A stretch of DNA of 64,000 nt from contig JBHGNT010000014.1 in the NCBI GenBank assembly GCA_043228905.1, forward strand, positions 806,001 through 870,000, written 5' to 3'. A program made the translations under genes and the position numbers. Under the pieces are notes generated by a model. That model was not told where the DNA came from, did no database searches, and worked only from the letters and a program-made list of their open reading frames with translations. This document shows, one piece after another, positions 1 to 53,049 of the stretch. Source of the stretch: Azolla caroliniana (taxonomy: Eukaryota > Plantae > Polypodiophyta). Within the stretch, counting starts at the first letter, position 1; every line of letters begins with the position of its first letter.

Positions 1-991
1 CACCGTAGGACGCCAGATACTTCGTGGCATCCCTCCCATCGAACCGGCCGATCGTGCCGACGACCGCCTCGATAGCTCTGTCGAGGGCACCGGTGCCCTC
101 GCGCGCATTTACAATCCGATCCACGGCCGAAGCCATGGCCTCTGCAAGATCCGACCCCCTCATCTTCTGCTCTTCTGCCGCCTCTTTCACGTCGGGTTCA
201 CCAAAGATGTCTAGATATTACGCAAGTGCGTGTGGAAACGAGGCGGGACCGCGGGGGTCTCGAACCAAAGAGCAAGCGAGGGAAGAGAAAGAGGGAGAAC
301 CGGCTACGCAGGACCGGGGATACACAGGGACACGGCCCTTCAGCACGGAGAACGCGAACAGACACCGACACAGACAGATGCGAATGACTAAATATGTATA
401 TTAAGAAAAATGGCTAGCATGACTACAACCCCCGATGGGGCACAGGTTGGTTACAACCGAACAGGCCGGCGAACAGATGCCGATGCCTGTTCGCTTCGAC
501 GCACAAAGGGGGTAGCAGGTCGGAGGTGCTGCCGGAAGCGCTCGGGCGTTCCTCGAAACAGCGCGAGCCTCCTCGGAACCCTGCACAGAAAGCTATGGAG
601 CTCAAGAAGGAAGGAAACAGAGAGAGAAGCGTCCAGAAACGGTCCGACAGCACTTCGTCCTCTCTGCGCGAGATGCCCGCAACAGCTCTTTCCTCCTCTT
701 ATATAGGCCGACGAGCAGGCCGTCGTGTCAGCTTTATTCCCTGTCCCTTTCGAACAGGGATCCGCTCCGTTCTTCACGCATCCGCGTAGTTACGCCGCCG
801 ACTCGTACAGTTCGCGCGCGCGACCGGAAAGACTGTTCGCGCGGTCTTTGTCTCCACTCGTGTTAGGGCCCGTTCCTGCCAATTATCCTCCTAATTCGCT
901 TCTATGTACAACTTGGAGCGTGCGCGCGTGAAGAACCGGTTCCCACGCCTTGGTGCGCCGATTCCGCTTATGGACGGTTTTCTTCACGACA
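1..991 (-). mobile_element. 5' end of a Ty3/gypsy LTR retrotransposon (5' LTR 208-991, tRNA-Trp PBS ~187-203, gag start at 163), running off the left edge
   Basis: On the minus strand the LTR reads TGTCGTG...CTAGACA, then a 4-nt spacer and TGGTGAACCCGACGTGA (same PBS as at 38187). The gag begins MRGSDLAEAMAS...GRFDGRDATKYL, similar to GQFNGKDVSRYL in the gag at 38249. The outer flank is ACGT (992-995). Confidence 0.8.
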
Positions 992-3160
992 ACGTGATTG
1001 ATGTATGTGATTATGGCATTGCACCGGAGTATGTAGAAGCATTCATTAGAAGTTGTGGTTGCCAAATGGTGTCAAAGGTTGACCCGAACGAAAGTTTGGG
1101 AGAGAGCATGGTCACATATAACAAGACCCTACCCATAGAAGTGATCAAGGTAGAAACCCACCAGTTATATGATGCGCTCACGGATTTGCAAACCAAGTAT
1201 CACACAAGCTTAAGGAAAGGAGTCAAGAAGGGTATGCGTGTGACTAGGTATAGTTGTCATTGTGTCTAATTCCACTTGACGACATAGTTGCACACCCCGA
1301 TGTGGGTGTACATTCCATGTGGGCATTAGAATGAATGACAGGTTGACAATGAGACATTGTCCATTTTGATATATGGACCTCACAATGGTCATGTACCATG
1401 TAGTAGGTTGGATGTGTACCATTTGCCAGCACACCCCAATGTCATAAGTTGTTGCAAAGATGACCTATTTGATATTGGGTGTGCAAGGCATGTGGCACGA
1501 ATGAGCATGCGTAAGTAAGCATATCATAAGTCCAAGGCTAGTCCATTAGAGCTTGTTAGCTATAAGTTCTTGGGCAATCGACTCGACATTTAAAACAAAC
1601 CAATTTGGGCTACCCCAACGCCATGGGCATTGGGATCTCGTTATGGTACATGCTTTGTAGTTTTGATAAGGGGTCAAACCATGAGCAAGTCGCATTAGAA
1701 ACTTTCTTGAGAGTCATATTCGCAATGATGCCCATGGTGAGGCCAAATGAGATAGTGATTGATAAATGTTGGACATCATATAATGCCATAACTAATGTGG
1801 TTTCAATAGATTGTCAATCTTGGATTGTTGTAAATGGGCAACAGTCGCAAACAGATTGTTGACCTTTGTTGTGTCTGTTTCACGTCAAAAAATCATGGGT
1901 GGACCATTTGTTGTAAGTGCAACTGAGAGAAACCATCTTTATAAATGAAAGTGCCAACTGATGCAATGCATTACTAAATCCACATTCAATTTTATGTGTG
2001 AGGAGTTAAAGGTAGAATATGCAAACAAGCCCGATGTTTGGCCATATATAGAAGGAGGATGGTGTGGTTTGACATGTGTGTGGAGGAAAGTCTAGCCCAA
2101 GTTAGGTAGAATGTTCAACTACGGACATGTTGACACTACCAATATCATGGAAAGACATTGGCAGTTTATCAAGTATACTGCCTTGAGAGGAAGAATAAAC
2201 CGATCAATTACCGACCTTGTGCATGTCTTAATTGGGGATAGTGAAACTGACACTTGCATTAGAGGAACGATCGTAGAGTGGTACAAGCAACGACTAGAAA
2301 TATGTGAGAGTGGTCGATTTGCACCCCATGCAAATTGTAGGGATCAAAGGATCAAACTTAAAGAGGCCGAGAGAATATTGGAAAGTTATGTCAATGATAC
2401 TTCCACAATGCATATTGTAGACAAGGCCTAATATTGGTTTAGAATCTTGATCATGATGACTCCCAATCTATGGTATAATGTCTCACTCCAATGCTCATAT
2501 TGTGATTGCCAAGACTGGGCCAAGACCTTGCGAGTAAATGCTTACATTTACTTGGTATTTGAATGATTATTGAGATGCACATGCCACATTTATGTGGCTC
2601 ATTGCATTTTAGAGATCATGCAACCCAAATGCGAATGGACCACAATATAGAAATAGAAGTGGAGACAGAGGTAGAATGAGTCGAGGAGATAAACCCCACA
2701 ACATCAGAGATGGAATCATTGAAGTCCAAAATACAAATGGCCGAGGAAGCACTTCAATGTCTCAAGCATGGGTTAGGAACTTCGACCATACAACTATTTT
2801 GGAATGTATACAAACATTGGAAGATATGACTGAGAAGTTGTATTGCATTGGTGCACCAAAATCAACCAATGACGAAGATGGCAGATCAATAAGTCACAAC
2901 CAACAAATCGGTGCCAAAAGAAGCGCCACAATAGACATCTCGCAAGAACTTATTGGTAGCTCCCCAAACACATCCAAATCCCACACCGGAAAACTACAAA
3001 GAGGTGCAACTCGGGCTAGGAGGTGATTACCAATATGTGACCATGAGAAGGTTCGGTGTTTGCGTTGTAATGGCTTGACCTTGACTTCAAGGGACTCAAT
3101 TGTTACTTGTTGTAAAAATTGTGGCTGCATTTTGCCATCATCCCCACGTGAGCCATAATC
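992..3160 (+). mobile_element. Degenerate Mutator/MULE-like transposase with SWIM zinc finger (pseudogenised)
   Basis: Fragmented ORFs carry IVIDKC...YNAI, CLFHVKKSW (CxxH), TTNIMERHWQFIKY and a CDC..W..C.. SWIM-like remnant near 2490-2545. There are many stops and frameshifts. Short subterminal-type repeats (GGCTCCTGGTTACAGAG) lie at ~3475-3600. Confidence 0.7.
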
Positions 3161-4629: not shown

Positions 4630-4706
4630 CTCTTCTTCGTCTTCTTCCTTCTTCTTCTTCTTCTTCGTCTTCTGCTTCTTCTTCTTCTGCTGCTTCTTCT
4701 GCTTCG
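4630..4706 (+). repeat. (CTT)n-rich microsatellite in the ArgRS 5' leader/promoter
   Basis: Imperfect CTT/CTG repeat run about 120-200 bp upstream of the ATG. Confidence 0.85.
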
Positions 4707-4827: not shown

Positions 4828-7800
4828 ATGTGGCAATCCCTAACTCCTTGCCTTTCTCTCTCTTCGCGCTCGCCTCTTGCCATCGCCAAATCGTCTGGTA
4901 ACTCCAGCCCTTTCTCCTCTTTGTTCCGTTCAATTTGCTTAGGAAGACGTCCCCTGAATCTCATTGCAGAAGAGAGTGAAGAAAAAAGAGAAAAGGAAAG
5001 AACAGAATAATGAAATGAAATGAAAGGAAAAAAAGAGATAAAAGAGGAAAAGAAACCTGACAAGGGAATCCTCATGGCATTCACGACTCTGGATCTGTCT
5101 GTCTTTCTGCTTAGACATGCGAATGAAGTATGTCTTCCTTTTCTGCTTAATTCACCCCCTCCTTTCAAAGAAAGAGCTCTCTGAATCTAATGAAAAAAAA
5201 CACACAACAAATAAAAGGAAGAAGGGAGAGAAGAACGGAAAGAGACATGGGAAACTTATGTTTTTCTTCACGAGTCGATCGTAAGCATTCTGTGTAGTAA
5301 TCATGCGAATGAAAGCACTAAAAGAAATGTTTTTCCTTCCAAATTGTCTGGTAATCTGGTCGTTTTTTTGGCAGCTTACAGAAGGACTCCCCTCTAATCT
5401 TATGAACCATCTTCTGTATAGATCCATGGAATAGAATAATATTTTTGGGAAACTTATGCTTTTCTTGCTCACCTTGTCTGATCTGTCAAAACTTTTGACA
5501 CAGTGTTGTATTTTCATTCTTTTCTTTCAATTTCTGATGTGATAAGCCTGACCTCTTTTTGCAGGATCATCACAATTTCAATCAAGAACATCTCACCTGC
5601 ACAGGCTTCCATTTTTGCTGAAGAATTCCCGAAACAGAAAATTGTTCTTTGTTCGCTTCCAAAATAGTTCTTTCAGTTCTCACCTCACCATGAATCAGAC
5701 TTTGAGTTCTCCAAATGTACCAAAGGTTTGTGCTCGATTGGTCAATGTGAGCATGCGTAAGCTACTTCATGACGTTCATGGAACATGTGGGAATACTTTG
5801 TGCGTCGAATCATTCTTTTCCCATGTATATGCATTTTATGTATATTTGGAGGAAAGCAAACATGAATTATGTGGAGACTGTTTTCATTATCCAAAGTGGC
5901 AAATAAAATGAGATGCTATATGAACATAATTGAAATACCATCTGAAATATTCAGCTAGACTGAAGTTCTATCCATATGAACATCATGACAATGCCTGAGA
6001 ATAGGGATTACATAACTAGCTATGGCATTATACGTTGTGTAGAGAGCTCTGCACTTGTGACATAGTGGAAAAACTATGTAGGGGTGCGATAAGAGTGCTA
6101 CTTGTGTGAGGATGAAAAATAAAGAATGGAATATGAATGATGATTTGGATATGCACATTAGTTTAGCACCAATTAATCTCATGAGCATAAAAGGAGAAAT
6201 GATTGTTCTTCCATGTCCTTTTAATCAGCTTGCTACGTCTGCACATGCACGCCGTCAGATTGCAGATCTGGTACAAGAGGCATTAACATCTTTATTTCCA
6301 GAAGAATCAGGAAACGAACCTTTAGTTGCTGCTTGCACAAATAAGTTTGGGGATTACCAATGGTACATCTACTTTTTGGTTCTGGAATTTTGTGGAATTC
6401 TTGTTATGTGACAAATGGTTGGTAACACTGTCATTTCAGCAACAATGCAATGGGTATCTGGTCAAAGATCAAAGGTAAACACCCAGATTTCAAGAGTCCT
6501 AATGCTGTTGGACAGGTATGTCTATTGTTGGGGTTGTAAGAGTTCAAAAATGAACTGGAATGATTGTTGAACGTTTGACTTACATTGTCCAACTGTGTGT
6601 GACTTTCAATTTTGCAGGGAATTGCAAAAGCTATACCAGCTTCGCCCCTTATTGGGAATACTAGTGTTGCTGGTCCTGGATTTGTGAATATTGTTGTCTC
6701 TAGTGCATGGATTGAAGAAGTGAGTCTCTGTTTCTTTTCTGTACTTGCCTTATAGTTAAGTTGCTAATGCAAATATTTAGACCATTTAGATGCACTAGAA
6801 CCTGGGTTTGTGAATGTTGTTTCCAGTTTGTGGATTGAAGAAGCAAATGTCTGTTTCTGTTCTGTATTTAGCTGATTCTTAAGTTACCGATGCCAGCAAA
6901 TTGTTAGACACATGTAGATTCCTAGGGTGCTCATATACTTTTTTGTTCACTTGTTGTAATTTTGCTGCAACTCTGTTTTTGGAACACTGGTATAGAAATC
7001 CATAAACTATGTCTGGATTATGACCATGTCCTACTCTCTCCCTTCCTGTGTTATTTTCACAAATCAAAGGCAGGTGCAAAAATGCACTATGCTTGCGAAC
7101 GGGTAGTGAGTTTAGTTCAGTGTTTTATCATTATGGTATGGACATTGGACCTTCTAATATCACTGGGAGGTTAACTTAGTCTTCTATTATGATGGTTCAA
7201 GTTCAAAGTTCACCTTACACCCTAAAGCAAGAGTAAAAGACTTCTCGAGTTTCTGATCATTCATGTAATTTTGATAGGAATGGAAGTACAAGTCTATTTG
7301 ACTACCTTAGAAATGACAATGTCTTGGATGCAACATGTTATGCTCATATAGAATATGGCATGTGTATTCATGCCTTGGTACCAATGATCTCAGGACTCAA
7401 ACCTCACTAAGATGACACTCTCACACTTACTCCCATCAAAGATATTCACTTAGTAACGACGACACGCAGATGTGAAGAATGCAATATAGTTCTCAAAACC
7501 CTCAGCAAGTAATTCAATCGGGAGGATTGCTACACAAGGTGGATGGAAAGAAATCGAGAAACAAGGAAACGTCTATGAAGAAATCTCTATGCAGTCAAGT
7601 AAAGTCGGTCACTTAAACAGAAGAACACCCTTGCATGTTGTTCTCTTCACCAATCTAGTTCTAGAAAACTGGACAGAAAATCTTGTATGTTGAGTTGGAA
7701 CTATGGGATGTGATCCCAAGGATGCAATTGATATAAAGGTATATATGGTCTTCATATTGGCCACGCTGACATGTTTATAGATGTCTATACAATGGTCTTT

Positions 7801-10800
7801 GGTGCATTTCACGTCATAAACATATTTTCATACTTTATTTCTTTATGTACACATTAATGCAGAGAATACACAAAATGTTGGTTGATGGCATAGACACTTG
7901 GGCTCCTGAACTCAATTTGAAAACGGCTATTGTCGATTTTTCTTCCCCAAATATAGCAAAAGAAATGCATGTTGGTCATCTACGGTCGACAATTATCGGC
8001 GATTGTATAGCTCAAATGCTTGAATATTGTAATGTAGAAGTGCTACGCAGAAACCATGTTGGAGATTGGGGAACTCAGGTCAGTGAAAATTGGCCATTTA
8101 TCTTTCAGGAGAAATTTTCAATCTTATTATTGGGTTGTTCGGTGAAGTTATAATATCTCATCACACCTTAATATGATAAAGGCTGGAGTATGAAGTTCTA
8201 AAGTAAAATAAATAATAACTAAGCTAGATTTTGTCTTTTATGACCATATCCTAACAGTTCATCAAAACTTGCAGTTTGGAATGTTGATTGAGAACCTTTT
8301 TCAAGAACATCCCGATTGGGAACAAGAAAATGATGAGAATGCTGTTAGTGTATTGCAGGTGAGTTTTTTAACCTGGGAGATGGTTCTGGATTTCAATCGT
8401 GTTCTAGAATATTGATAGATGCCTCAATTAGTATCACCAAATGGTCCACTTGTTACACTATTGACTTTTCTTAGGTTGAAACCTATTAGTTAATGTTTCT
8501 TACTGAGTGCATCTTTAGACAAATGAATGGCATGGCAGTAATTTTGATCAACCAGTGTCTGTTTTCTAGTATTTATTTTTCTCAAGCTGTGTGTTCTCTT
8601 AAACATTGTTTGGTACTTATTTGCTCAAACTTATGTTGCTATATATAATCTGGGCACAAATAACTGTCTCTTAGATTCGTGAATGGTGATCTGAAGAAGT
8701 ATCACGTGCCTGATGCTCATAAAGATTGAGGTGAACCTTGTTTATGCAGAAACTTTATAAAGAATCAAAGAAGAAATTCGATGCAGATCCTATTTTCAAG
8801 GAAAAAGCTCAACAAGCTGTAGTTCTACTTCAGGTAAAGGTTTAAAAAAAAATGATGTTATGGTTTCAAAAATGCTCAAAAATACTAATGGTGGATATTT
8901 CTCCACTTTGACAGGGTGGAAATGAAAGATATCTTGAAGCATGGAAACATATTTGTGCTCTTAGTCGGAAAGAGTTTGAACAAATCTATCAACGGCTCAA
9001 AGTTAGAATTGAAGAGAAGGTGTCCCTCTTAGTCATACTTTTCTTTGAGACAATTATATTTTGCTATTGCTGTTAGGCCCACTGCTTCTCCTGCAAAATG
9101 TGTGAAAGCTATTTAAATATAATTATAGAATTTATAATGATACATCTATATGTTGTGTTCAGGACTTTATATCACTTGTTAGATTCTTATAGTTTATCCT
9201 CATTAAATATGATTTTGAAGTCAAATTGGGACGTATCCACCTATCAGGTTCATGTAATTGATCCTCTTGGTTATTTGTAAATAACAGGACTTAAACACAT
9301 TGAAGCACGGTAATTTTCACGTAGAAAAAGGCAAATGCTTGATAAATTTTCAAATCAACATTTTTGTTGTCAACAATTCACAATTAGAATAATCAATCTG
9401 AACTTAAATTTTATTGATCTTGGAGAATGAAGTCATATCCTCGATTTCTGAACTGAACAAATAGACAAAGACATGACCAACATCCCTATAATGGTTAGGG
9501 TGGCATATGAAACTCAAATACGTCCCAATTATAATGTCACAGGAAACCTTATCCATACAAAAACAGAAGGTCATTGAGGTGGCTATAAGCGAAAAAGTGA
9601 CCCTAATCTGGACTTATCTATTATAAAAATGGAAGAATTATATCTAGTATGTACTTGAGAAATCCTTCTTCCAGTATAGTTGTATACCTTGAGACTATAC
9701 TTCAATGTGTTTGAATCCCATTGCACTTCATTGCAACAACGTATGGGTCATGGATGCATTCTTAATTAATTATGTAATGTTTTTCATGCCATACTTTATG
9801 TAACAGTTCCTAATTTCTTTGGGTAGACCTCAACAGTAGTTTCTGTTCTTCTATCAAAAGTTCTCTTTCCTGATACGGCTTGGAATTCCTTTTTGATCCC
9901 TTCTTTGACTGAAATTTTGCTTCGATGCCCTCTGGAAAGATTTTTCTCACCAGAAATTTATGGTCGTTGGTCGATTTATTCGAGAATTCCTTGATCCCAG
10001 ATATTTCTATGCCGTGAGGCCATATTTTTCCACATTTGAATCCTGTTGCACTTCATTGAACTGCGCATTGGCTGCAGATGCATTCTCGTTCAATTATGTT
10101 ATGTTTTTCATGCTAGTCTTTCATTGAACTGTGGTTGCTGGACGATTTACTCAGAAAAAACTTTCTACTGGATAATTATATGCCTTGAGTTTGTTCTCTG
10201 CACAGCTTTTTAATCCCATTACGCTTCATTTGCAACAAGGCATTGGCTACAGTTGTATTCGCAATCAATTATGTAAACTCTCTGATAGTCTTTGAATACT
10301 AGTTTCTTTTCAATATGTTCAGACCATTAAACTTCTTGAAAAATCTAATAGGCAATAAGGCTTCCCAAAACTTATATATTCTTCAAGATTTTGGTAACTT
10401 TTTGCATCCTACTGGTGGCAAGCTCTTGTGACATCTGCTACAATATTGTTTGTCAACAACACAGACTAGGAAACATGTTTGAATTTGGTCCATGCAGAAG
10501 GTACTTGGCTTTCTAGTGAACAGCATCTCATTGAAGGCGGTGACTTTCGTTCATGGTTTTGATGATTCAATTAACTTTCATCGCGTTTGCTGCATCTAAT
10601 TATTGTATAAAATTTAAAGCCTTTAGCCTATCCTGTGTAATGCTAATAGTTGCACCTCTTCATCATAATCCTTCGTTTTTGTGTAAGCATCAAGTGGTAA
10701 TAAATAGGTTCTGTTAAAAGTGATGCTTCACCATTTTTCATTTGTGAGCCCCTACCATATGGTCTTGTAGCCATATATGAATGAATGAAAGAAAGAAATA

Positions 10801-16022: not shown

Positions 16023-17226
16023 ATACATGGTAGATCTGCTGAAAAAATCAAATTGATGTGGTTTCATGTGTAACAGCCATAATATGTTCTGATTTATTTT
16101 GGAAAAAAAAAATAAAAAAAAATGTTGTGATTTCATGCGAAAACACTGACTTCAATGGTTCTTTTCAAGCAATCCTACAAGATTGCACTACCATTCGAGA
16201 ACTCCTAATGGAAACACCGGAATGGTCTTTGTTCGTCTCCTTAACTACAAAACTAGCATCATGGAAGATCCAAACAGTCAAATTTGGAAACAAAGCTCCT
16301 CTTTGAACCTTTCAATTTTTCTTTTGTTATCACTTTAAATACATGCATGGATACTATTCGTGATGACATTGGCATTCTTCAAGAAATGTTAAATTAATGT
16401 ATGGGCTTCGAAATTTAGTTTTGAAACGGATAATGTAAATGGAGACAATTGTATCAAATCCTCCCGATTTTAATGACCATGTCATGCAAAGCAGTCATCT
16501 AATCCCAAGTTGCAACAAAACACATGATGGGAATACTTCTGATGAGTGTTATTTCCTTGTGGAAAAAAAGCTTGGCATTGTACATAGTTGACTACTTACA
16601 TTAGAAATTTTGATCCATACAGCTCATTTTGGAAACATGAAAGTTATACAAATATGCAAAGGATGAGAACTCTAGGCTACATATGGAGTAATCCTCAATT
16701 GTATTGTACAAGTAGAAGTACACTATAGCTCTCAATTGAAGACAAACACCACCAGAATGGAAAGTGTTGGTACAAGCCTAAATTGAATAACATAAAGGCT
16801 GCATATGTTACATGCCATTTTGGAGATGTTGATGAGGTTCAAGCTTCGATCTACAACTCAAAGCTCTTCCTAAGAACGAACACATAGGCTGGAATGAAGT
16901 AAAGATCACCATTAATACCTTAAAGATACGAATTACATAACAAAATAAATGATACAACTATTTTGACAATAATAATCGCTACTAGTTCATTGTTGGTCAT
17001 AGATGGTATTATTTATTTTAAGAATGAGACACAATGAAGTCTTCATGAAATGATTGCAATATAAGAGAAGCCCATGATGCCATGCATGTAGCACGTGCAA
17101 TTACCTAGATATTGCACAACAAAGCAATGCGTGTCGAGTTGATACACCTATTGGAATTCACTTCATTTTGTCAAAGCACACCTCACACATTTGGTATCAT
17201 AGATACATACATACATACATACATAT

Positions 17227-17257
<31 letters not shown>

Positions 17258-17272
17258 CACACACACACACAG

Positions 17273-17307
<35 letters not shown>

Positions 17308-17476
17308 TATATATATATACATACACACATATATATATATACATACATATATATATATATATACACATACATATATATATATATATACATACATATATAT
17401 ATATATATATACATACATATATATATATATATACATACATATATATATATATATATACATACATATATATATATAT

Positions 17477-17509
<33 letters not shown>

Positions 17510-17536
17510 CATACATATATACATATATACATATAT

Positions 17537-17570
<34 letters not shown>

Positions 17571-18178
17571 GATATACACATACCTACACATACATTTGTG
17601 CATAGATAGATATCTTGAAACGATACAAAATGTGTGAGGTGTGCATCGATATATCAACGTATGTATGTTGGGGTTTTCCATAACTAATATAGACAAGTTA
17701 CTGTCGAAAAAGAGACCGCAAGTAATATAAAGAGTTACTCTAATTTTTAAAGTATGTTAAGGTAAGTGTACCAGGCAAGACGATGTTCCATCATGTTCTC
17801 TAACGTTGAGAAGTTGTTCCTCAACCTCGATTAACCGAAGTAGGACCGATGAGATCTTGGGCGCGCCCACATTGGGGACTGATTGTGAATCATCTTTTTG
17901 GTCATCCGTATCGATGTTCGATGACTCGGTGGATGATGATACATGTGGAACTAAATTGTCAAGTTGTGTTGAATGCTCGTCTGACGGGGTCTTCTTTAGT
18001 ATAGACTTGAGAGGAGGTTGGGTGGATGTGGGGCTATGAACATCATGGTGTAGATTGTGTACCTTGGAAGAGATCCTATTCAAATACAAATTTTTGTGCG
18101 AGAATTGGGAGGATCTCCTAGGCGAGAAAACAAAGGCGGAGGCCACAGGATAGTAGACAAATGCGTTGTTATCATTTG
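16023..18178 (-). pseudogene. Copy A: duplicated 3' part (last ~140 codons) and downstream flank of the 524-aa gene
   Basis: Colinear and near-identical to 23330-25273. The translation NDNNAFVYYPVASAFVFSPRR...SSCLVHLP matches the C-terminus of the 524-aa ORF. It is truncated at a junction with copia gag. Confidence 0.92.
17203..17580. repeat. Expanded compound (TA)/(CA)/(CATA) microsatellite
   Basis: Seen directly; it explains the cluster of IYIY/MYVY spurious ORFs. Confidence 0.95.
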
Positions 18179-19120: not shown

Positions 19121-19129
19121 TAACTCCCA

Positions 19130-19428: not shown

Positions 19429-19480
<52 letters not shown>

Positions 19481-23179: not shown

Positions 23180-23249
<70 letters not shown>

Positions 23250-24539: not shown

Positions 24540-24570
<31 letters not shown>

Positions 24571-24605
24571 TATATATATACACACACACACATATATATA
24601 CATAG

Positions 24606-24665
<60 letters not shown>

Positions 24666-24851
24666 GATATACACGTACCTACACATACATTTGTGCATAG
24701 ATAGATATCTTGAAACGATACAAAATGTGTGAGGTGTGCATCGATATACCAACGTATGTATGTTGGGGTTTTCCATAACTAATATAGACAAGTTACTGTC
24801 AAAAAAGAGACCGCAAGTAATATAAAGAGTTACTCTAATTTTTAAAGTATG

Positions 24852-26426: not shown

Positions 26427-26773
26427 CTTTTTTACCTAAGCAAGGAACAGGAAGGAAAAAAAGAGAGGAAGAAAGGGGCAGAAGGTGTGTGAGAGAGAGA
26501 TGGTCGCATTTGCATTTGCTTTTTAATTGGGGGGGGAGGGGGGGGGGCAAGCTTATACTCTTAACACGTTTTGTGAAGCACTCTGCTCCCACTCCTCTTC
26601 CTCCTCCTTAACATACAAGAACGTGCACCCTTCGTGTGTTCATGTGTTTTGCTTCACTTTTTTGAAAACGCTTTCAAATTGATAAGGAAGGTCTCCTGTG
26701 GGGGGGGTGGGGGGGGGCAGATTCGATTCGAACCCTCGTGCATTGAAGGAACCACGAACACTTCAAGCATGAC

Positions 26774-36650: not shown

Positions 36651-37534
36651 ATGTAGCATTACAAGGGAGGACAATCGACACTATATGAAGTAGGAGGAGG
36701 GTGCTTTATATATAGTCACCCTCTCTCTTCCTTAACTAACTATAACAACCACTCTCTCTTGGGGAATGTGAAGACTCATTAGACATGGGGAATATGAAAC
36801 TCATTAGTTATGTATCATAGAATATGATTTTATGACACATAGTTAATGTGTAGAGAGTAGTGGTGTGACTTTTGACCTTTGAGTGCACATAGATTCTCAA
36901 AGGGTGTGTTCACACACAAGGTTAGGTTGAGTTTGATTCTCCACACGCCCCCTCAAGCTCAACTCGGGTCAGTTCCTTTCGATTGATGTCCGCTTCAGCT
37001 GGTACTTGGTTCAGATGGTATCTGGTTCTCTCTTGTACTCACCCTCAAACTTGGCAAGTCAGGGATCATCAATCCAAGGTATGACATGAATTTCCGAAGC
37101 TTGTTGGCTCCTAGGGCTTTGGTGAAGATGTCAGTTGTTTGAAGAGTCGTATTGATGTGTTGAAGGTCGACATCTCTTGCCTGAATGTGCTCTCGAATGA
37201 AGTGATAATGCACTTCGATATGCTTTGTGTGTGCGTGGAACACGGGGTTCTGAACCAAATAAATACTGATCATGTTGCCGTAGTAAAGGGGAGTCAGATC
37301 CTTGATGGGAACGCCCAAATACTTCAAAATCCTCTTGAGCCATATGGCTTCACATGCAACCACAACCGTGCCCCTGTATTCAGCCTTTGTGCTCGCTGCC
37401 GAGGGAGAAAATGAATACGGAGGTTGATCTTTGGTTGGCTCTATAGCCGGCCCGATCGGGATCTGTGTATCCTTTGCGTCGAATTGATGTGGCTGATTTG
37501 TAGAGAATACCACAATACATTGTGCCGCTCACGT

Positions 37535-40500
37535 TGTCGTAGTGTATTTCGTACACTACGTGAAAAACATGTATACTATTCGATTCAATAAATATGAAGA
37601 AATAGAAGAAAATGTTAAAATACGTGATACATGAATAGGGCAAGATTTGAACCTTGTACCTCCATGTATGTAAAGTAATGCCTTACCATTACACTAGCAT
37701 ATTATTAGTATTAAAAATAAATGTCCACATAGAAAGGTAAGTGCACACTAGGATAAACTTTAGTTAAAAACGCATGATAAAAGAAAAAGCTACACATGCA
37801 CATCTAGAGTGCATGAACACTATAGTCGATAAAAAAACGCATGAGGTTAGAAAAAGCATGAGCACTATATTTAGGAAATAAAAAGCATGGTTGAGAAAGG
37901 CAACTCATGCACATCTAGTGTGCATGAACACTTTAGGAAAAAGCATGATGTTATGCTTAGCCTCTTCCATCACTATATAAGGAAGAGAGAAAGATGTATA
38001 TGAGGGTTGATTTTTATAAGGGTTGATTAATATAAAATATTCGTGGGATTCACGAGTTTCATATCTTTCTTCTTGCAATCTATTTGTAACTAATCTTACC
38101 TCATATTCTTCCTTCTCCTAGTCCAAAACCTCAACAGTTCCCACACGACTCACGCAACGATTCAGAGCCGAAAGGCACGACACAAGTGGTGAACCCGACG
38201 TGAAACCCGGGTGGCAAGGAGATAGAAAATCAACCGGAAACTAACAACATGATGACGATGTTCGAGCGGATGCTACAAGAACAACGCGCGATGTCGGAGA
38301 TTACGGCGGCAGTAGAGCGGCTCCTACAACGGAATGGGCAATTCAACGGGAAGGATGTGTCGCGATATTTGCAGGATCACAAGGCGGAAATGCTACGGTG
38401 CGGAATATCGGAAGGATTGCACGTGACATCCTTCAATCGGGTGGCTATGGACGGGCTTCAAGGGAGTATCCAAGGGATACGACAACAAAATCCAACGTGG
38501 GAAGCATTTGAAGAAGTGCTAAAGACCACATTCTCCATCGAGGACTCCTCCAAGGCAACGCGGAGGGGATTCGAAGATTGGGTGGAAACGCCAGACAAGG
38601 GGCTGAAGGTCCTCGATGTGTTTTCAACATTTGAAAGTTGGTTCGAGAGGTTGTCCGCAAGAGATTAAGCTATCCTCACACCAGACAAAGTGATCATGTT
38701 CTTATGAGCCGTGTATGTCCGGGACCGGAAAGATCTTGGAATGCTTCTAGAGGACACCACTATTGAGAGTGGCCTCACCAATACATGGGAAAACGTGCGG
38801 GCTATCATCGTGCGATACACAAAGAGGGGGCAATGTCTTGGTAGTGAAGTAAAGAGGGTTTTGGAACCAATTCCGAAACCAAGATCTGGATTGGAAGACC
38901 ATCAACTGTGGGCTCGAGAGACTATGACCGAGAAGGGAATCGATGCAACCACGGTGGAGCAGTTGCTGACGGAGATGGAGAATCTGAAAATCGCGATGGT
39001 GAAGAAGTCGGATGACCGTCCCACAAGTTCCAAGTATATGGATTGTCGATGCATATGGTGTGATAGCACCGAACATGATCGGAGGGATTGCGAGGAGCAC
39101 AAGGAGGCGCTACGATGGGACTGACAGGAACTGCACGCTCCCTATGCGCAACGCTCGGCCACAACCGAGCTTAGAAACATACACAGAAAAACGGGGAATG
39201 GATGCACGACACAAAAGGAGAGAAGAGTACACAGGATGTTTAACATGGAAAACCCTGAGAGGGAAAAACCACGGGAGTCCACAGACTCCAAACTATCACT
39301 ATATCACAAGGATTACAACAGTGAGCTCACGGAGGCAACGACCTCGTGCTCACGATCTTCGCCACAGGCGGCGGTTACAACAGAGGCAGCGACCTCTTCC
39401 TCTCTCTCTCTCTGTACATTGTTACACGCTCTCAAGTCTTGCACCAACAAGAATGACAACAACAATAAAAAAAAGTTTGCCCTAAGTCATATTTATACAA
39501 ATATGACTTTTCAGCTATTTACACATATAGCCCCGATGGACTCTTAGAAACATATTTACGAATATGTCCCTTCATCCAGTGAGCACTCCTCACCGGGCCT
39601 GCATCATCCGGCGCTTGACGGGTACTCGTCATCCGGTTCTCACCGGATCTTCCGTTGCCGGGTACTCTTCATCCGGTTCTCACTGGGTCTTCCGTAGCCG
39701 GGTACTCTTCATCCGGTTCTCACCGGGTCTGCACCATCCGGCTCATGCCGGGTACTCCACATCCAGTTTCGGCCTCGGCCTATCGGCCACGGCCGAGTTT
39801 GCTCATCAGTACTGCTCTTCTCACTTCCCATCCGGAGGGACCTATTTCCTAACAGGGACCTTATCTACTACGAGGGAAATCGGATTCAATCGATGGACTC
39901 TTGGAAGCCACTCTGACCGAACTTTCAAAAAGGTGGCATGAAGAAGGTCCTAGAGGAGGAAATAGTGGCGAAAAGCAACTATGCGACAACCGCGGGGATA
40001 TGTGTGGGTGAGTCATTTGGAGCAAAGGCGTCTTTTTGGCCGGAAGTGCTAGAAAACCCCGAGAAAACTAACTCTAACGAGATCCGAAGCACTTCGGAAG
40101 GCATCCGAGAAGCTACGGGATGGGAGTGCCCCATTGATAAGAATAGTGTGTACACCCTATGCCAATTACATGAGGTGTACGTAGATGAGAAACGACGGCG
40201 CACGGATGATGTGGCCGGACCATCAAAGACGCCAGAGAGTTGGAACTCCGAAGGGAAGGGGAAAGGAAAAAAAACTCCGGCATTCAAACTCGCTTCGGAC
40301 ATTGAGCAACGAATGGACTTAAAAAAGGTGTTCAAGGAGAGAATCCTCGATAGCCGGGTAGATTTTTCGCTTCGGGAATTGCTCGGAATAGCGAAGAAAC
40401 AGTTCCAGGATCTTCTTGTGGATCTCGTGAAGAGAAAAAGACAAAATACGGAGGAAAATGCTCCAAGGGTGAATGCAAATACCGTTCTAATGATTGACAC

Positions 40501-43500
40501 CGAAGTGGAGGATGAAATTCCGAACTCCCACTACACAAGGCCACACTGGGCACGCGCAACTATGGAGACACCGGTGCGAATCGGAAACATCAAGGAGCCC
40601 GTACTAGCATTGATTGATCACGGATCAGAGATCAATTTGATGTCCAAGGAAATCTACCGAAAGGGGAAGTGGCTAATTAACACTAATCATGGATGGAAGA
40701 TCCGAGCAGCCACTAAAACAACGGAAGATTTATTTGCGGCTTGTCCGGATGTGACAGTGAAGATCGGAGATGTGGAGATTGACCAAAATTTCTTCGTGCA
40801 AGATGAGGTCTCACACTCAGTGATCCTCGGACAACCCTTTATCACAGCTTCACGAATGGAGACAAAGGTGCTCGATAGCAAAGCGTCTTTTGCACGAATT
40901 CGGAGCCAAAGTGGAGGGAAAACCGTCCAATTCCTAACTTTACCATCAAATCACGAAAGGAACAAGAGAGAGCTCTTATCCCAAACAAAAATGGAATTTT
41001 AAAGCGGATTGTTGTAGAGTGGGGAAGTGATAGTCTGAGAAGCCCTGATACTCCACACAGGAAGAAACCTCTCGAAGCAAAACAAGTACAAATCGGTCTG
41101 GATGGGGCATCTACGTACACAGCCGTAACTGGAGTAATGAAGAAAGAATTCTGAAAGGCGCAAGATGAGTTACGGTCTGCATCAATAATAAAAGAAGACG
41201 AAGAAATCATGGGAGTAGTTGGAGAAGTGTTCTATGGGAGCATGCTACAACGGCTTGAAGAGCTTGCAGAAGAGAATAACCAGGGAGACCAGGTAGTTCC
41301 GGTGGAATCGGTCGAGATGTATGAGATCATTGCGAAAATGGGGTCGGATGCGCTCCGCAAAGAAGAAGAAATGGTATGTACGAAATATAAGACCGTGGTC
41401 GCGGGACCTCGGGAGATCCGACACTTCGGAAGTCCGTAGATATCAAACATGCCTTCACAAATGAGACCCAGAAGAAACTTCGGATCAGTGGAGGTGGTTT
41501 CCTCTCACAAAATGAAGAAGAACGGTTTCGTGAGATGTTGGAGTAGCATGGAAGAGCATTTGCATTCACATCGAAAGAGATAGGGTGTGTTGACCCGAAG
41601 ATAATGGAGCTTATGGTGATCATCACGATTGATCATGTGTCGTGGAACCTGAAGCCGATTCCGGTGCCATGAGTGCATATTCCGAAAATCATTGACTTGC
41701 TCAAGGAGAAGGTGGGGATCGGGATTTTAGAGGCATCCAATGCTCTGTACTCAAATCGATGGTTTACAGTTCCGAAGAAGAATGGGTCTCTCCGATTTAT
41801 TCAAGATTTGCAACCGGTGAACAAGGTCATGATCCGGAACTCTAGAGTCGGTTCGATAGTGGACGAATTTGCGGATGCGTTTTCCAGTCGCGCGATATAC
41901 TCCAGCGGAGACCTATGCTCTAGGTATGACCAATTCCAACTAGTCGTGGAGAGCCGAGACATCACTACCATTCGAACACCGATAGGATTAGTCCAGATGT
42001 GCACGCTACCACAAGGCGCAACGAACTCGGTCACACATATGATGAATGCGATGAACAAGGTGCTCCGAGACTGCATTCTGGAGATAACGATGCCATTCCT
42101 AGATGACATTCCGATAAAAGGATGTGCGGTGGAAGAAAAAGATGAGACTATGGATGATCGGGGATGCCGAAAGTTCGTAGTCGACCATATTCGCGATTGC
42201 AAGAAAGTGTTACGGAAGTTAGAAGATGTGCAGCTAACGCTCTCCGGAGAGAAATCGGCATTCGGACAAGAAGAGATATTGGTAGTCGGACAACTATGTG
42301 GGCCCTACGGCTGAAGACCATCGCCAGTCAAGATCAAAGCGATTCAAGCTATGAAAGAAATATGCGAGTCACAATCCGAAGCTCGTAGATTTCTTGGAGC
42401 ATGTGCATTCTATCACATATGGATTCCGCACTATGCACACATTGCAGACTCACTCTATCACTTGTTGCGGAAGGGGAAGAAGTTCGAATGGAAACCGGAA
42501 CATACCAAAGCCGTGAAGAAGCTCAAGAAATCACTACAGAGGGAAAAAGCACTTAAGAAGCCGAACTATGATCGACCGATTATAGTAACGGTTGATACAA
42601 GTCCAACCAGGATCGGATGGGTCATCAATCAAGCCAATTCGGATGGTTCACGATATCCGATCTGATCCAGAGCAAAGGTTCTCAACGAAAGGAAACGCGG
42701 ATATGCACAAGTTAAAAGAGAATTATAGGGAGTCGTGTCAACGATAAAATCAGTTCGAGATTACTTGATTGGAGCCGAAATAGTGATCGAAACATATTGT
42801 CTTCCGATACTCGGGATGATGTGGTGTTGCACGATACCGAATGTGGCTATGCTAAGATGGATTGCATATACAAAGTCACTTAATCCGGAGATACAACACA
42901 TCTCCGGAAAAGGAAACGTGGTAGCGGATATGCTATCAAGGGCACGGTTCGGAGACGACATAGCCGAATCCGATAATGAAGAAGTTTCCGAAAACTACTT
43001 TACTTTGGAGCACATATGCCGGGTGAACGTAATCCGAGAATTCTAGGAAGAAGAATACGAGGGAGAAAGTTTGTTGATCGGGAAAGTGCTACAAGAAATC
43101 GAGGAATCATCTAACAATAAAGAAAAGAGAGTCAAGATCCGAAGTAAGAAGCGGCAAATCCAAAAGTTTTTCTTGAACAATGGATTAATCTGGAGGGAGC
43201 CGAAAAGACCGAATGGTATACCACTACACGTAGTCGGAACAAAAGAGCAACGAAACTGGTTAATGTCCGAATTTCACGAATCTGATTGGGCTGGACATCG
43301 AGGAACATGGGCAACATTTGCGAAGATCAAACAAAAATATTGGTGGAAGAATATGTACAAAGATGTAGCAGAGTTCACGGAAAGCTGTGAGAAATGTTAA
43401 ATCTACTCCGGAGTTTGACACTGAGATGAATTACATCCGACATTCTCATCGACAATCAACTTCAAATGGATGGTCGACATTGTGGCCATGCCAACCGGGA

Positions 43501-45094
43501 TCTGACAAAAGAAGTACTTGGTGTTAGCTCGGGAAGATTTGACAAACCAAGTAGAAGGACGGGCACTACAGAGGAAAACATGTTCCGTAGTATGCCAATT
43601 TCTCTTGGAAGAAGTGTTCTGCAGGTATGGGTGCATAGGACAAGTGATTACGGATCGGGGAGAACTTGACTCTGATACAGCTAGGGAATTCTTTGCCAGA
43701 CATGGAGTACGGTTAACACTAACCACGGCATACAATCTGGAAGCCAACAGAAAGATCGAGCGAGGACATAATCCAATCGTTAAAGCACTTGCAAAAGCAT
43801 GCGACGGAAGGGTGAAGGATTGGTCGCAAATGCTTTTGTATGCACTATGGGTGGATCGCACGACGCATAGTTCCGTGACCGGTTATATGCCAGCTAAACT
43901 TATGACCGGACAAGCACCGGTAATGCTGACGGAAACCACAATTGCAACATGGACAGTGCTACCGTGGAAGGAAGAAATGAACCAGGAAGAACTACTAGCA
44001 TTCCCGATACAACAACTAGAGGGAAGACCAGAAGATATAGTGGAAGCAACACGCCGACAATAGGAAGCACGATTCCAGAACAGAAGTCGATTCGACACAA
44101 AGCATCGACTACGACCACGGAAGATTGAAGGAGATTGGGTGATTGTCTATGATAGTAGTTTGGATCATCAACATACAACGATACAAAAGTTCGCTAAAAG
44201 GTGGTTTGGCCCATGCGAGGTTCGGAAAGTTTTCGACAATGGAACTTATCGACTATGCGAGTTGGATGGAACAGTACTACGGGTGCCCATAGTGGGGAAA
44301 CAGGTGAAGATTTTCAAGAAGCGGACTAACGAAGAACCTTATGTAAGCTTAGACAAGACCGACAACGAGGAGCAATCGGGCAAAGATCGCGGTGATGCGG
44401 AAAATGAAGAAAGTGGACTACAATTGATAATCGACATAAGGGGAGAATCGGAGAGTGCTACGGATGAAGGCGAATAACAAGCATCGGGAACTTCGGCACA
44501 TACCGGAGGATGTGCGGGTTCGGAGGGGGTGAGTGTCATAGTGTATTTCGTACACTACGTGAAAAATGTATATAGTATTCGATTCAATAAATATGAATAA
44601 ATAGAAGAAAATGTTAAAATACGTGATACATGCATAGGGCAAGATTTGAACCTTGCATGCTAGGATAAACTTTAGTTTAAAACGCATGATAAAAGAAAAG
44701 GCTACACATGCACATCTAGAGTGCATGAACACTATAGTCAATAAAAAAATGCATGAGGTTAGAAAAAGCATGAGCACTATATTTAGGAAATAAAAAGCAT
44801 GGTTGAGAAAGGCAACTCATGCACATCTAGTGTGCATGAACACTTTAGGAAAAAGCATGATGCTATGCTTAGCCTCTTCCATCACTATATAAGGAAGAGA
44901 GAAAGATGTATATGGGGGTTGATTTTTATAAGGGTTGATTAATATAAAATATTCGTGGGATTCACGAGTTTCATATCTTTCTTCTTGCAATCTATTCGTA
45001 ACTAACCTTACCTCATATTCTTCCTTCTCCTAGTCCAAAACCTCAGCGGTTCCCACCCAACTCATGCAACGATCCAAAGCCAAAAGGCACGACA
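37535..45094 (+). mobile_element. Full-length (degenerate) non-chromovirus Ty3/gypsy: 5' LTR 37535-38182, tRNA-Trp PBS 38187-38203, gag-PR, RT-RH-INT, PPT 44522-44533, 3' LTR 44534-45094, 4-bp TSD ACGT/ACAT
   Basis: Highly similar LTRs TGTC...GACA; zinc knuckle CIWCDSTEHDRRDC; PR ALIDHGSEIN; RT LPQGATNS...FLDDIPIKG; RH VTVDTS...NVVADMLSR; INT H-H-C-C, VDIV, ITDRGE, IERGH; GPY/F-like RWFGP; no chromodomain visible. Confidence 0.95.
39122..39854 (-). mobile_element. Solo LTR (copia type) inserted in the Gypsy gag, 5-bp TSD GGGAC
   Basis: TGACAGGA...TCCTAACA flanked by GGGAC on both sides. Its reverse complement shares GGGTTTTCCATGT.AAACATC.TGTGTACTCT and TATAGTGATAGTTTGGAG with the LTR at 19130-19756. 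It contains ~40-bp tandem repeats at 39600-39760. Confidence 0.9.
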
Positions 45095-45773
45095 ACATAT
45101 CATAAAACTCGCTTAGCACAATCCAAATGGATATCTCGTGGAGTTTGCATGAATTGGCTAAGGAGGCCAACCAGATAGCTCAGCTCGAGTGGAATGATCA
45201 TGAGGTAGATGAGACTCTCGATCAATTGTCGATGTTGAGTTGGTTCGCACTCTTCCGTGCCGGAGTTGGTCGTTAGCTTTAGGTTCCGATCGAGAGGGGT
45301 TGCCGCAGACTTACACTCAGTCATCTCGAACTTGTATAACAAGTTAAGGATGTAGTGTTGTTGAGAGATCATAATGTCGGCTAGAGCCCGAATTACTTTG
45401 ATGCCAAGGAAGTAATGGAGCTCCTTCAGGTCCATTATCTCGAATTTGTTGGAGAGTAAGGTCTTAACCTTGTTGATGTCAACTAGATGTTCTCCGCCAA
45501 TAACCAGAGCATCCACATATCGGATGATGACAATCGGGCTTTCAGAGTCATTTCGTACGTAGAGGGAGTTGTTGTATTTCGACATTCGAAAGTCGATTCG
45601 ATGAAGATATTGTGTTATCTTCGAGTGCCAAGCACGTGGTGCTTGTTTAAGGCCGTAAAGTGGCTTCTTCAGTCGGCAAACTACTTTCGGATGGATGCTC
45701 GATTTGAAGTAGGGTGGTTGTACCATGTACACCTCCTCTTCTAATTCACCTTGAAGAAAGGCGTTCTTTACGT

Positions 45774-46372
45774 TGTCGTGACGATTTTCGGCTACGGTGT
45801 GAAACCGAGTGAGACAAATAAACGAAGGATGTGCAACATTGCACATACACTTAGAAAATAAGCCTCCTAAGGCCTAGTTGCACTTGAGTTCATACAGAGG
45901 GGTGCAAGCAAGGTTTGAACCTTGCACCTCTAAGATACAAGATAATTGCCTTACCACACCTTTTCATATACAAATTATAGACGAAACAACCATAGAAAAC
46001 CATGTGCACAAAACCATGGTTTGTGCATGACATAAGCAAAACCGTGTGCACAAAACCATGGTTTTGGCCCATGGTTATGTGCATGTCACGAGCATGGAAA
46101 GACCTATAAAAGCCTCTAGTTGGGCTTGTGTAAGGGGGGCTCAATATGTGATATCACCAACACCATTATCATCAATATAATTATATTTGTCTTTATCTTC
46201 TTCATATTTTTCTACTTCTCAAGTGTACAATCTTTCTTCTTCTCAAGTAAACCAATTTCATCTAATCTTACATTGATCGTCATCTAGCGTCGATAATTCC
46301 GCGAACGTCCTCCCCAGTCCAAGACCCCGGTGGTCGCTCGAGTAGCACACGCACGCGTGAATCTTCGCGACA
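45774..46372 (+). mobile_element. Solo LTR (Gypsy-type termini) inserted in the copia RT, 4-bp TSD ACGT/ATGT
   Basis: TGTCGTG...CGCGACA with TATA-like CCTATAAAAG at ~46103. Its removal restores the host codons ATG GAC GTA AAG (MDVK). Confidence 0.88.
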
Positions 46373-48510
46373 ATGTCCATTTGATGGAGGTGCCACCCTT
46401 TTGCTACTGCAAGTGCAATTACGGTCCGCACAATTGTCATCTTTGCCACCAGGGCAAAGGTCTCTTCATAGTCGACTCCATGTGTTTATGCGTATCCTTT
46501 CGCTACGAGTCAAGCTTTGTAGCAATTTACGGAGCCGTCGACATTATCTTCACCTTGTAAATCCATCTGCATTTGATTGCCTTCTTGTGCGATGAGTGGG
46601 GAACGAGATCCCATGTCTCATTCTTCCATAGTGCCCCCATCTCCTCATTCATTGCTTCGACCCATCGTGGATCCTTGGCTGCTTCTGAAAAACTTTCCGG
46701 TTCTCGAACTATGGCCACTTGCATCATAAAGGCATAGTGGTATGCCATATAATCGTTGTAGCTAAATCCGCTAACAGGATTCTTCTCATGGGTGGAGCGA
46801 CGGAGTTTTTCGCTTGCCGTGGCAATGACGTTCTTTATGCCAGGTGTCCTCATGATAGGTACATCGAAGCCACCGAACTCACTGTCGAGGGAGTGAGTCG
46901 ATTCGTTGATGTTGAATTGATCGTCTTCATACTCCAGGATTTTCATCTTGCCTTTGTCCATCTTCGGACTAGGCTGAGATGTGCTTTGGTCACTCGGGGG
47001 TTCTTGTAGCCCACTAAGCCTTGTCGTAATCGGACTTTCTTCGAACATGTGTTCGAGTCGATCTCCATCTTCTATCTCTTGTTCTGTGGATTCCGAGTTG
47101 ACTAGAATTGATTCGGGAGGAGTCGACTCAGGTTCGTACCATGATGGCGATTCATCGAAGACTACATCTCGACTCACACAAACCTTCTAAGTCGAGGGGT
47201 TATAGCACTTGTACCCCTTTTGCTCCAATGAGTATCCTACGAGGATACATTTCTCTGACTTCGGGTCGAGCTTCTGTCGCTTCTCGTCGGGGATGTGCAC
47301 GTATGCAATGGAGCCAAATATCTGAACATGTGATAGATCGAGCTTCTTTCGGAAAAACTTCTCGTATGGGGTAACCTCATGCACTCCGGATGTCGTGCAC
47401 CAATTCATGAGGTAGACAGAATAACCATATTCTGCTTTGGCCCAATATGACTTTGGCATGTGCTTTTCGTTCATCATGGCCCGTGCTACTTCGAGGATGT
47501 GTCAATTTTTGCATTCAGTTACTCCGTTTTGTTGTGGTGTATGTGGACACGAAAACTCTCACCGAATTCCTTCTTTTCGGAGAAAAGCGGAAAACTCGTC
47601 GGAGAAGTACTCTTTTCCTCCATCCGACCGAAGACATCGTACATGTCGACCTGTTTCCTTTTCAACTCCACTCTTGAATTTTTGGAAGTGTCTGAACACT
47701 TCATTCTTTTGCCGCATGGGGTAGATCTAAGCGTGCTTGGAGAAGTCATAGATGAAGGCCACATAATATTGATATCCGCCGAATGTAGCCATCTGAGCCG
47801 GTCCCCATACATTGGAGTGAATTACATCCAATATGCCTTTACTCACGTTCCTCTCCTTCGACAACGGGTGCCGATGTTGCTTGCCGAATTGGCAGGCTGC
47901 ACATATGCCTTCAATCTCTTTCTCTTTGAAGGTCGGGAGTTCGATGACGACTCCTTTCGATTGCATTGCCTTGAGCTTTTGGAGTTTGATGTGGCCAATC
48001 CACTTGTGCCATAACTCTACGTCGGTGTCGGCTTTGGTGCCTTTTGCAAACATGGTTGATTTCATCTCGTGCAAGTCGAGAATGAACATTCGGCCCTCTC
48101 TTTGTCCACAAGCGATGTGTCGACCCTCTTTCTCGATGAAGCAACCGCCTTGATTAAATTGAACTTGCATCCCTTGCTCAACAATTTGGCCAATGGAGAC
48201 CAAATTCTTTGTAATGGTTGGTACATGTAAGACATTCTTAATGTAAGTTTGGTTACCTTCTTTTGCGAATGGAACGTTGTCGATGTGCCGAATCAAATGA
48301 GTAGTGTCGTCTCCTGTTTCGACATAACCGGATCAGTCCGGCTCTCGAAGTTCTCAGAACCATTCTTGATGAGATGTCATATGGTTCGAGGCATCGGAGT
48401 CGACGAACCATACGTTTTCCGAACTAGAGGCACTATTCGAAGTAGAAGCCAACATAGAATTACATGAATAATAATAAAGTTACTTGCTTGTGTCATCTCC
48501 AAGCAATCAT

Positions 48511-53047: not shown

Positions 53048-53049
53048 CT

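What the first reader, a model, noticed from the sequence alone, without database searches (positions are those of the whole stretch)
208..46376. Gypsy lineage that appears to target the palindrome ACGT with 4-bp TSDs (3 of 3 insertions)
Seen: three LTRs with TGTC...GACA termini and otherwise dissimilar sequences all abut ACGT. (1) LTR 208-991 is followed by ACGT; only one flank is visible. (2) Element 37535-45094 is flanked by ACGT/ACAT. (3) Solo LTR 45774-46372 is flanked by ACGT/ATGT. In 2 and 3 the mismatch is a CpG transition, and deleting the insert plus one 4-mer restores the host copia frame (Y-V-S-G-T-M; M-D-V-K). The copia-type solo LTR at 39122 shows an ordinary 5-bp TSD as an internal control. 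Established: most plant LTR elements make 5-bp TSDs with little sequence preference, while 4-bp sequence-biased TSDs are known from insect errantiviruses. Inference: this lineage has a sequence-selective integrase for a CpG palindrome. All three landed in coding regions of other TEs, which could make ACGT (possibly methylated) a route into silent chromatin without a chromodomain. I cannot check whether this is already described for non-seed-plant Gypsy clades such as Phygy or Selgy.
Basis: partly seen in the sequence, partly recalled or inferred. Interest (0 to 1): 0.82.

Follow-up and report, generated by a model that had tools for sequence, protein, structure and literature searches.

The report
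Phygy-like retrotransposons insert at CG
Three jumping-gene insertions here do sit at ACGT, and the two with both flanks in view duplicate 4 bases, but related copies use many CG-centred 4-base sites, so this is likely the CG preference already published for the moss Phygy lineage, with ACGT as its commonest form.

Summary
All three LTRs abut ACGT at the stated coordinates. Empty-site contigs from public runs show a 4-bp duplication for element 2 and for the solo LTR, and 5 bp for the copia control. The target is not strictly ACGT: of 19 independent junctions of related elements, 18 are NCGN and 1 is ATGT; 5 of 19 are ACGT and none is TCGA. This is already in print. Neumann et al. 2019 (PMC6317226) give the Phygy lineage a 4-bp TSD (100%), an NCGN preference, a tRNA-Trp primer site and no extra domain. 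The window elements match on these points: no chromodomain or aRH, and 51-62% protease-region identity to Physcomitrium proteins. A formal REXdb tree could not be run. The likely mechanism is the 4-bp integrase geometry that needs a flexible central pyrimidine-purine step and disfavours T/A at the edges (PMC4422553), here narrowed to CG. Modest additions: ACGT as the modal site, TCGA avoidance, and presence in a likely fern. Methyl-CpG targeting is untested.

The parts
1..140 (-). start of gag of element 1 (runs off the window)
   Evidence: translation resembles element 2 gag N-terminus; end coordinate approximate
188..203 (-). primer-binding site of element 1 (tRNA-Trp 3' end, identity recalled)
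208..991 (-). 5' LTR of element 1, 784 bp, TGTC...GACA
   Evidence: homologous starts in L005, L006, L036, L061, L065
992..995 (.). ACGT flank of element 1 (only one flank in the window)
37531..37534 (.). left TSD copy ACGT of element 2
37535..38182 (+). 5' LTR of element 2, 648 bp
38187..38203 (+). primer-binding site of element 2 (tRNA-Trp 3' end, identity recalled), 4 nt after the LTR
38249..41002 (+). decayed gag-protease ORF with DUF4100, interrupted by the copia-type solo LTR
39122..39854 (.). copia-type solo LTR, 733 bp, 5-bp TSD GGGAC (control)
   Evidence: empty-site skip 738
41002..44477 (+). decayed pol: RT, RNase H, integrase (H2C2, rve, SH3-like); no chromodomain, no aRH
44522..44529 (+). 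polypurine tract, 4 nt before the 3' LTR
44534..45094 (+). 3' LTR of element 2, 561 bp (87 bp shorter than the 5' LTR); 23 mismatches in 561 aligned columns
45095..45098 (.). right TSD copy ACAT (CpG transition)
45770..45773 (.). left TSD copy ACGT of the solo LTR
45774..46372 (+). solo LTR, 599 bp, of a related family with the same PBS
   Evidence: 72% to the L077 LTR; same end as L041/L076
46373..46376 (.). right TSD copy ATGT (CpG transition)
36995..48400 (-). host Ty1/copia element (integrase, RT, RNase H region) that carries both element 2 and the solo LTR in its RT/RNase H coding region; outer limits approximate

Best explanation
These are three decayed insertions of one non-chromovirus Ty3/gypsy lineage, likely Phygy, whose integrase likely cuts the target with a 4-base stagger centred on a CG step, giving NCGN sites with ACGT the commonest and TCGA avoided. 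Shown: 4-bp duplication for two insertions, NCGN at 18 of 19 outside junctions, outer-base bias (A at the first or T at the last position 22 of 38, the reverse 1 of 38), no chromodomain and no aRH. From the literature: 4-bp-duplicating retroviral intasomes bend the target sharply at a central pyrimidine-purine step and disfavour T at position 0 and A at position +3 (PMC4422553). Inferred: the same geometry, plus base contacts that pick CG over TA/CA/TG, gives the preference, and the two TSD mismatches are later CpG decay. No methylation step is needed to explain the data.
For: TSD length from empty sites. Junction table: 18 of 19 NCGN against 5.8% background, p about 1e-21; 18 of 22 with the three set-aside rows kept, p about 3e-19; ACGT 5 of 18 NCGN against 3.6%, p 3e-4; outer T depleted, p 2e-5. 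All 19 have a central YR step. In the host copia TCGA is the commonest CG 4-mer (45 of 159) and ACGT is rare (7 of 159), yet both insertions used ACGT, p about 0.003. In the window's own species, many unrelated-flank contigs align to 37530-37532, that is through ACGT or CGT (X2 18+24, X5 22, X1 17). Phygy definition: n=186, 4 bp (100%) NCGN, tRNA-Trp 81%, no extra domain. Protease region 51-62% identical to 15 Physcomitrium proteins; RT about 70% to Riccia and Adiantum proteins. No chromodomain or aRH hit in Pfam.
Against: No REXdb Phygy RT-RH-INT sequence was available. The only tree is of the protease region, has no outgroup, and the Physcomitrium proteins in it are not labelled Phygy. Element 2 is 6822 bp without its nested LTR, below the published Phygy range of 7656-9968. 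The tRNA-Trp identity of the PBS is recalled; no tRNA-Trp gene turned up in 36 loci or the window. The 19 junctions are single flanks from 17 contigs of one series of assemblies, selected for an intact CG-containing PBS, which favours young copies. The one contig with both outer ends of an element (L051) has unmatched flanks CCGC/ACGT, probably because it is a collapsed high-coverage contig. The loose-end table hides 99 rows and favours contigs that match more letters, so it gives no frequencies. Nothing here measures integrase activity.
Confidence: 0.85

Rival explanations
1. The lineage has a strict ACGT-specific integrase, unlike the looser NCGN of Physcomitrium Phygy.
For: 3 of 3 in the window. 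ACGT is enriched among NCGN sites (p 3e-4). In one search the 37530-37531 classes are among the largest listed for element 2's family (X2: 18 and 24 contigs).
Against: 14 of 19 outside junctions are not ACGT (CCGT 3, ACGC 3, ACGG 2, and GCGC, CCGG, CCGC, GCGT, ACGA, ATGT 1 each), including copies homologous to LTR1 (L006 CCGT, L011 CCGG, L036 ACGC). Run X1 lists 17 contigs that match only CGT, and 13-16 per run start at the LTR edge, mixed with PPT ends. A family-specific tilt towards ACGT in element 2's family is not excluded.
Confidence: 0.07
2. The CG preference is a read-out of methylated CpG that steers this chromodomain-less lineage into silent, TE-rich chromatin.
For: Both two-sided sites lie inside a copia whose relatives differ mainly by C>T/G>A. 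Phygy is reported nested in Tcn1 in Physcomitrium (PMC6911290, passage) and enriched at Apopellia centromeres along with Tat and Selgy (PMC12885004, passage). There is no chromodomain.
Against: No methylation data were available. CG and TE content are high throughout the TE part of the window, so TE hosts are expected. The central-YR and edge bias is shared with 4-bp retroviruses and needs no methyl group. Centromere enrichment in Apopellia also covers Selgy, whose TSDs show no stated CG motif.
Confidence: 0.1
3. The elements are TatI, the other plant lineage listed with a 4-bp TSD and a tRNA-Trp PBS, or three ACGT flanks arose by chance.
For: TatI: 4 bp 100%, tRNA-Trp 75%, n=4.
Against: TatI carries aRH in 100% of copies; no second RNase H was found in element 2 or in its long relatives, apart from one weak RVT_3 hit (E 0.048) overlapping the ordinary RNase H of P0029. 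Chance is excluded.
Confidence: 0.03

Closest known systems
Phygy, non-chromovirus Ty3/gypsy lineage of REXdb (Neumann et al. 2019, PMC6317226; passages and supplementary file 3 read)
   Same: 4-bp TSD, NCGN target, tRNA-Trp PBS, no chromodomain, aRH or extra ORF, coding region filling the interior; close protein homologues in Physcomitrium
   Different: Defined from Physcomitrium alone; here the host is likely a fern. Element 2 is shorter (6.8 kb). The ACGT mode and TCGA avoidance are not stated in the passages read.
4-bp TSD class in Jedlicka et al. 2019 (PMC6911290; passages)
   Same: 4-bp TSDs with a GC-rich centre, AT-rich edges and palindromic character; Phygy nested in other elements
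   Different: Pooled over lineages and 12 genomes, not resolved by family
4-bp-duplicating retroviruses PFV, MoMLV, PERV, XMRV (Serrao et al. 2015, PMC4422553; passages)
   Same: central YR step favoured; T at position 0 and A at +3 disfavoured
   Different: Their preference is weak and accepts any YR step; here it is nearly fixed on CG
Drosophila errantiviruses, ZAM subgroup (PMC5408687; passages)
   Same: palindromic 4-bp target with CG (CGCG)
   Different: Insect, env-related lineage with a different motif; no sign of close kinship here
TatI and Selgy (PMC6317226)
   Same: 4-bp TSD; TatI also uses tRNA-Trp
   Different: TatI has aRH; Selgy uses tRNA-Ala, is about 5 kb and has no listed target motif

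Membership tests
Phygy | Clade placement by RT-RH-INT phylogeny against REXdb | tested here: inconclusive
   No REXdb sequence at hand. Protease-region tree of 69 rows: element 2 groups with metagenome rows (99/93), next to Adiantum (89/84), in one radiation with Physcomitrium and Riccia; no outgroup. Identity to 15 Physcomitrium proteins is 51-62%.
Phygy | 4-bp TSD | tested here: met
   Empty-site contigs for both two-sided insertions
Phygy | NCGN target preference | tested here: met
   3 of 3 in the window; 18 of 19 outside junctions
Phygy | tRNA-Trp primer-binding site | tested here: inconclusive
   An intact 17-nt PBS ending in the CCA complement is present in elements 1 and 2; its match to plant tRNA-Trp is recalled, and no reference tRNA was found
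Phygy | No chromodomain, no aRH, no extra ORF; coding region spans nearly the whole interior | tested here: met
   Pfam scans of element 2 and of long relatives; gag starts 45 nt after the PBS and pol ends about 45 nt before the PPT
Phygy | Size range 7656-9968 bp (descriptive; the paper calls size of little value for classification) | tested here: inconclusive
   Element 2 is 6822 bp, below the range; relative L051 spans about 7.86 kb between its outer LTR ends
TatI | Additional archaeal-type RNase H (aRH) | tested here: not met
Selgy | tRNA-Ala PBS | tested here: not met
   PBS read as tRNA-Trp (identity recalled); Selgy definition
Chromovirus (e.g. Tcn1) | Chromodomain at the integrase C-terminus and mostly 5-bp TSD | tested here: not met
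Errantivirus | env-type third ORF and insect lineage | tested here: not met
   No room or ORF between integrase and the PPT; the named homologues are liverwort, moss and fern

The most novel reading that the evidence does not exclude
The Phygy-type integrase, conserved from mosses and liverworts to ferns, reads methylated CpG in a VCGB (best ACGT) context directly, so that a DNA methyl mark rather than a chromodomain or a host tether steers these retrotransposons into silent repeats and centromeres.
Probability: 0.1. Interest if true: 0.7.

Novelty: new member of a known kind. Interest (0 to 1): 0.2.

Why it matters
The headline property, a plant Gypsy lineage with 4-bp CG-centred targets, was reported in 2019 for Phygy, so a specialist would not be surprised. 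What is useful is modest: the preference persists in several diverged families (gag about 30% identical) outside Physcomitrium, and the motif is sharper than NCGN (ACGT favoured, TCGA avoided). Near-intact relatives exist (for example P0002, P0003, L051) that could supply an integrase for biochemistry. The molecular basis of the CG preference, and whether methylation matters, was not found in the papers my searches returned. A near-obligate CG-reading integrase would be of interest for integration-site engineering.

Tried and rejected
No assembly is held for this window, so the genome-wide TSD table could not be made directly. The PBS pattern gave 0 hits in viral contigs. A 2-bp 'CG' TSD with TTGTC...GACAA ends was rejected by the internal LTR ends. 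A 5-bp TSD was rejected by the empty-site contigs. A mod-3 count over the whole of element 2 is uninformative; frame continuity was read from the host translations instead. Self-avoidance of ACGT inside the elements was tested: ACGT is below expectation in L018, L025, L043, L051 and element 2's pol, but not in L003 or L013, and it is also low in an unrelated contig (L044), while A-before-CG is low in the host copia, so the test is inconclusive. No Physcomitrium RT or integrase appeared among the listed hits (best 120 of 257 and of 277 shown). An Atlas search of the integrase ranked an unnamed eukaryotic cluster first (phylum known for 3 members), which says little about a fungal Ylt1 link; PMC2864245 passages did not tie Ylt1 to moss elements. 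PMC7466625 passages gave no TSD data. The ORF beside LTR1 had no Pfam hit and only low Atlas scores. A tRNA-like piece in the LTRs got no Rfam or ARAGORN support. Rows set aside before the count: L017 (shorter copy of L018's contig), one duplicate call of the L051 3' junction, L016 and L102 (spacer plus broken PBS, not flank) and L044 (long contig without lineage proteins, TAGC).
Full report
Observation. LTR1 (208-991) is the 5' LTR of a minus-strand element: its PBS is at 188-203, a gag start follows, and ACGT lies at 992-995. Element 2 (37535-45094) is a decayed full-length Gypsy with DUF4100-type gag-protease, RT, RNase H and integrase, flanked by ACGT/ACAT. The solo LTR (45774-46372) is flanked by ACGT/ATGT. 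The internal LTR ends are followed by CAAG plus the PBS and preceded by the PPT plus TGAG, so the LTR is TGTC...GACA and the duplicated unit is four bases. ACGT makes up 0.19% of the window's 4-mers.

TSD length from independent DNA. No assembly is held, so I used contigs of public runs. Over 36900-46900, 31 contigs in four runs (three samples) join 45771 to 46375 and skip 603 bases, which is the 599-bp solo LTR plus 4; a further 19 give the same net skip with one other letter. Ten contigs skip 738 = 733+5 at the copia-type control (15 of 838 joints shown, element 2's joint not among them). A short lay over element 2's left junction showed 13 contigs in run X5 that stop matching after 37534 and continue with sequence matching 45099-45128 at 27 of 30 letters, which is the empty site with one 4-mer. 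Element 2's LTRs differ at 23 of 561 columns and at 8 of 17 CpGs, so a CpG transition in each TSD pair is expected. Both two-sided insertions lie in the same host copia copy.

One lineage. The PBS pattern found 120 of about 420 matching stretches in metagenome contigs (40 of them with only 300 bases of flank). Most end in GACA plus a short spacer before the PBS. L041 and L076 end like the solo LTR, L003/L012/L059 like element 2, and L005/L006 like LTR1, so all three window LTR families use the same primer. Their gag proteins range from about 25% to 80% identity to element 2's.

The target motif. A fixed rule (terminal 30 bases, at least 22 identical to a PPT- or PBS-anchored seed) was applied to 119 of the 120 loci and gave 23 non-window flank calls. 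One was a duplicate and three were set aside (two broken PBS ends, one unrelated contig). The 19 left come from 17 contigs: ACGT 5, CCGT 3, ACGC 3, ACGG 2, and GCGC, CCGG, CCGC, GCGT, ACGA, ATGT 1 each. That is 18 of 19 NCGN against a 5.8% background (p about 1e-21; 18 of 22 with the set-aside rows, p about 3e-19). ACGT is enriched within NCGN (5 of 18 against 3.6%, p 3e-4), and the symmetrised outer base is A 22, C 8, G 7, T 1. In the host copia, TCGA is 45 of 159 CG 4-mers and ACGT 7, yet both insertions took ACGT (p about 0.003). In the window's species, contigs with unrelated flanks align up to 37531 (X2 24, X5 22), 37530 (X2 18), 37532 (X1 17) and 37535 (13-16 per run, mixed with PPT ends); that table hides 99 rows and favours longer matches, so it is qualitative. 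Limits: these are single flanks, from one series of assemblies, selected for an intact PBS, and the only contig with both outer ends (L051) has unmatched flanks.

What is known. Neumann et al. [quoted passage not shown] Their supplementary table lists Phygy as n=186, 4 bp (100%) NCGN, 8628 bp (7656-9968), tRNA-Trp 81%, no extra domain (file 3 read whole). Jedlicka et al. 2019 report 4-bp TSDs with a GC-rich centre and AT-rich edges, and Phygy nested in Tcn1 (passages). Element 2 has no chromodomain or aRH, which excludes chromoviruses and TatI. Its protease region is 51-62% identical to 15 Physcomitrium proteins, and named RT and integrase homologues come from Riccia, Adiantum and Ceratopteris. 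The protease-region tree places it with metagenome rows (99/93) next to Adiantum (89/84) but has no outgroup. Membership in Phygy is therefore likely rather than formally shown; the tRNA-Trp label is recalled, and element 2 at 6822 bp is under the published size range. An earlier unreviewed note on this genome also files related elements near Phygy and calls the host a likely fern; it is a lead only.

Mechanism. Serrao et al. 2015 found that retroviruses with 4-bp TSDs select a central YR step, disfavour T at position 0 and A at +3, and likely bend the target sharply as in the PFV structure (passages). All 19 junctions here have a central YR step and show the same edge bias. The simplest model, which is inferred, is a symmetric 4-bp intasome that kinks the target at the central step, with added base contacts that restrict the step to CG. 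The methyl-CpG idea is compatible with the TE and centromere locations reported for Phygy but has no direct support, and those locations are expected in repeat-rich DNA. I give it about 0.1.

Novelty. A whole-word search for NCGN with retrotransposon returned only the Neumann paper and an unrelated one. Searches for Phygy (15 papers listed), for fern plus Phygy (3 listed, not read) and for target preference terms did not show the ACGT mode or a mechanism, but Additional file 1 of Neumann et al., which I did not see, may contain it. Verdict: real, correctly seen, and largely already known. It is a new member of a known kind with a small refinement of the motif; interest 0.2.

Noticed in passing
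window 37640-37698 and 45898-45960: The otherwise dissimilar LTRs of element 2 and the solo LTR share about 50 bp (80%) that on the minus strand looks by eye like a tRNA-derived piece with A- and B-box-like motifs; element 2's 3' LTR has lost most of it in its deletion. Rfam and ARAGORN gave no hit.
   Followed up: partly
window 992-3000: The host sequence beside LTR1 carries degenerate motifs that resemble a Mutator/MULE transposase with a SWIM-like finger (recalled motifs; no Pfam hit).
   Followed up: partly
window 16119-18250, 21158-22540, 23402-25260: Three 93-98% identical copies of a stretch of about 2 kb with a (TA/CA)n microsatellite inside, two of them breaking into copia fragments; the third runs into a 527-codon open frame without Pfam hit at 24852-26435.
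   Followed up: no
loci L009, L027, L032, L066, L075, L089: A second, AT-rich element group uses the same PBS but has LTR ends in AACA rather than GACA and low CpG; no RT, integrase or gag match to element 2 was seen in the stretches held.
   Followed up: no
window 38183-38186 and 44530-44533; loci: The spacer between LTR and PBS is 4 nt here and varies from 2 to 8 nt across families, longer than the 1-3 nt recalled as usual.
   Followed up: no
window 7770-8153, 52936-53535, 62577-63749: An arginyl-tRNA synthetase exon, an IQ-motif ORF and an endonuclease/exonuclease/phosphatase (LINE-type) ORF flank the TE cluster.
   Followed up: no
window 45994-46080: A strong hairpin inside the solo LTR scores weakly against miRNA precursor models (E 0.013, far below the gathering score).
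   Followed up: no
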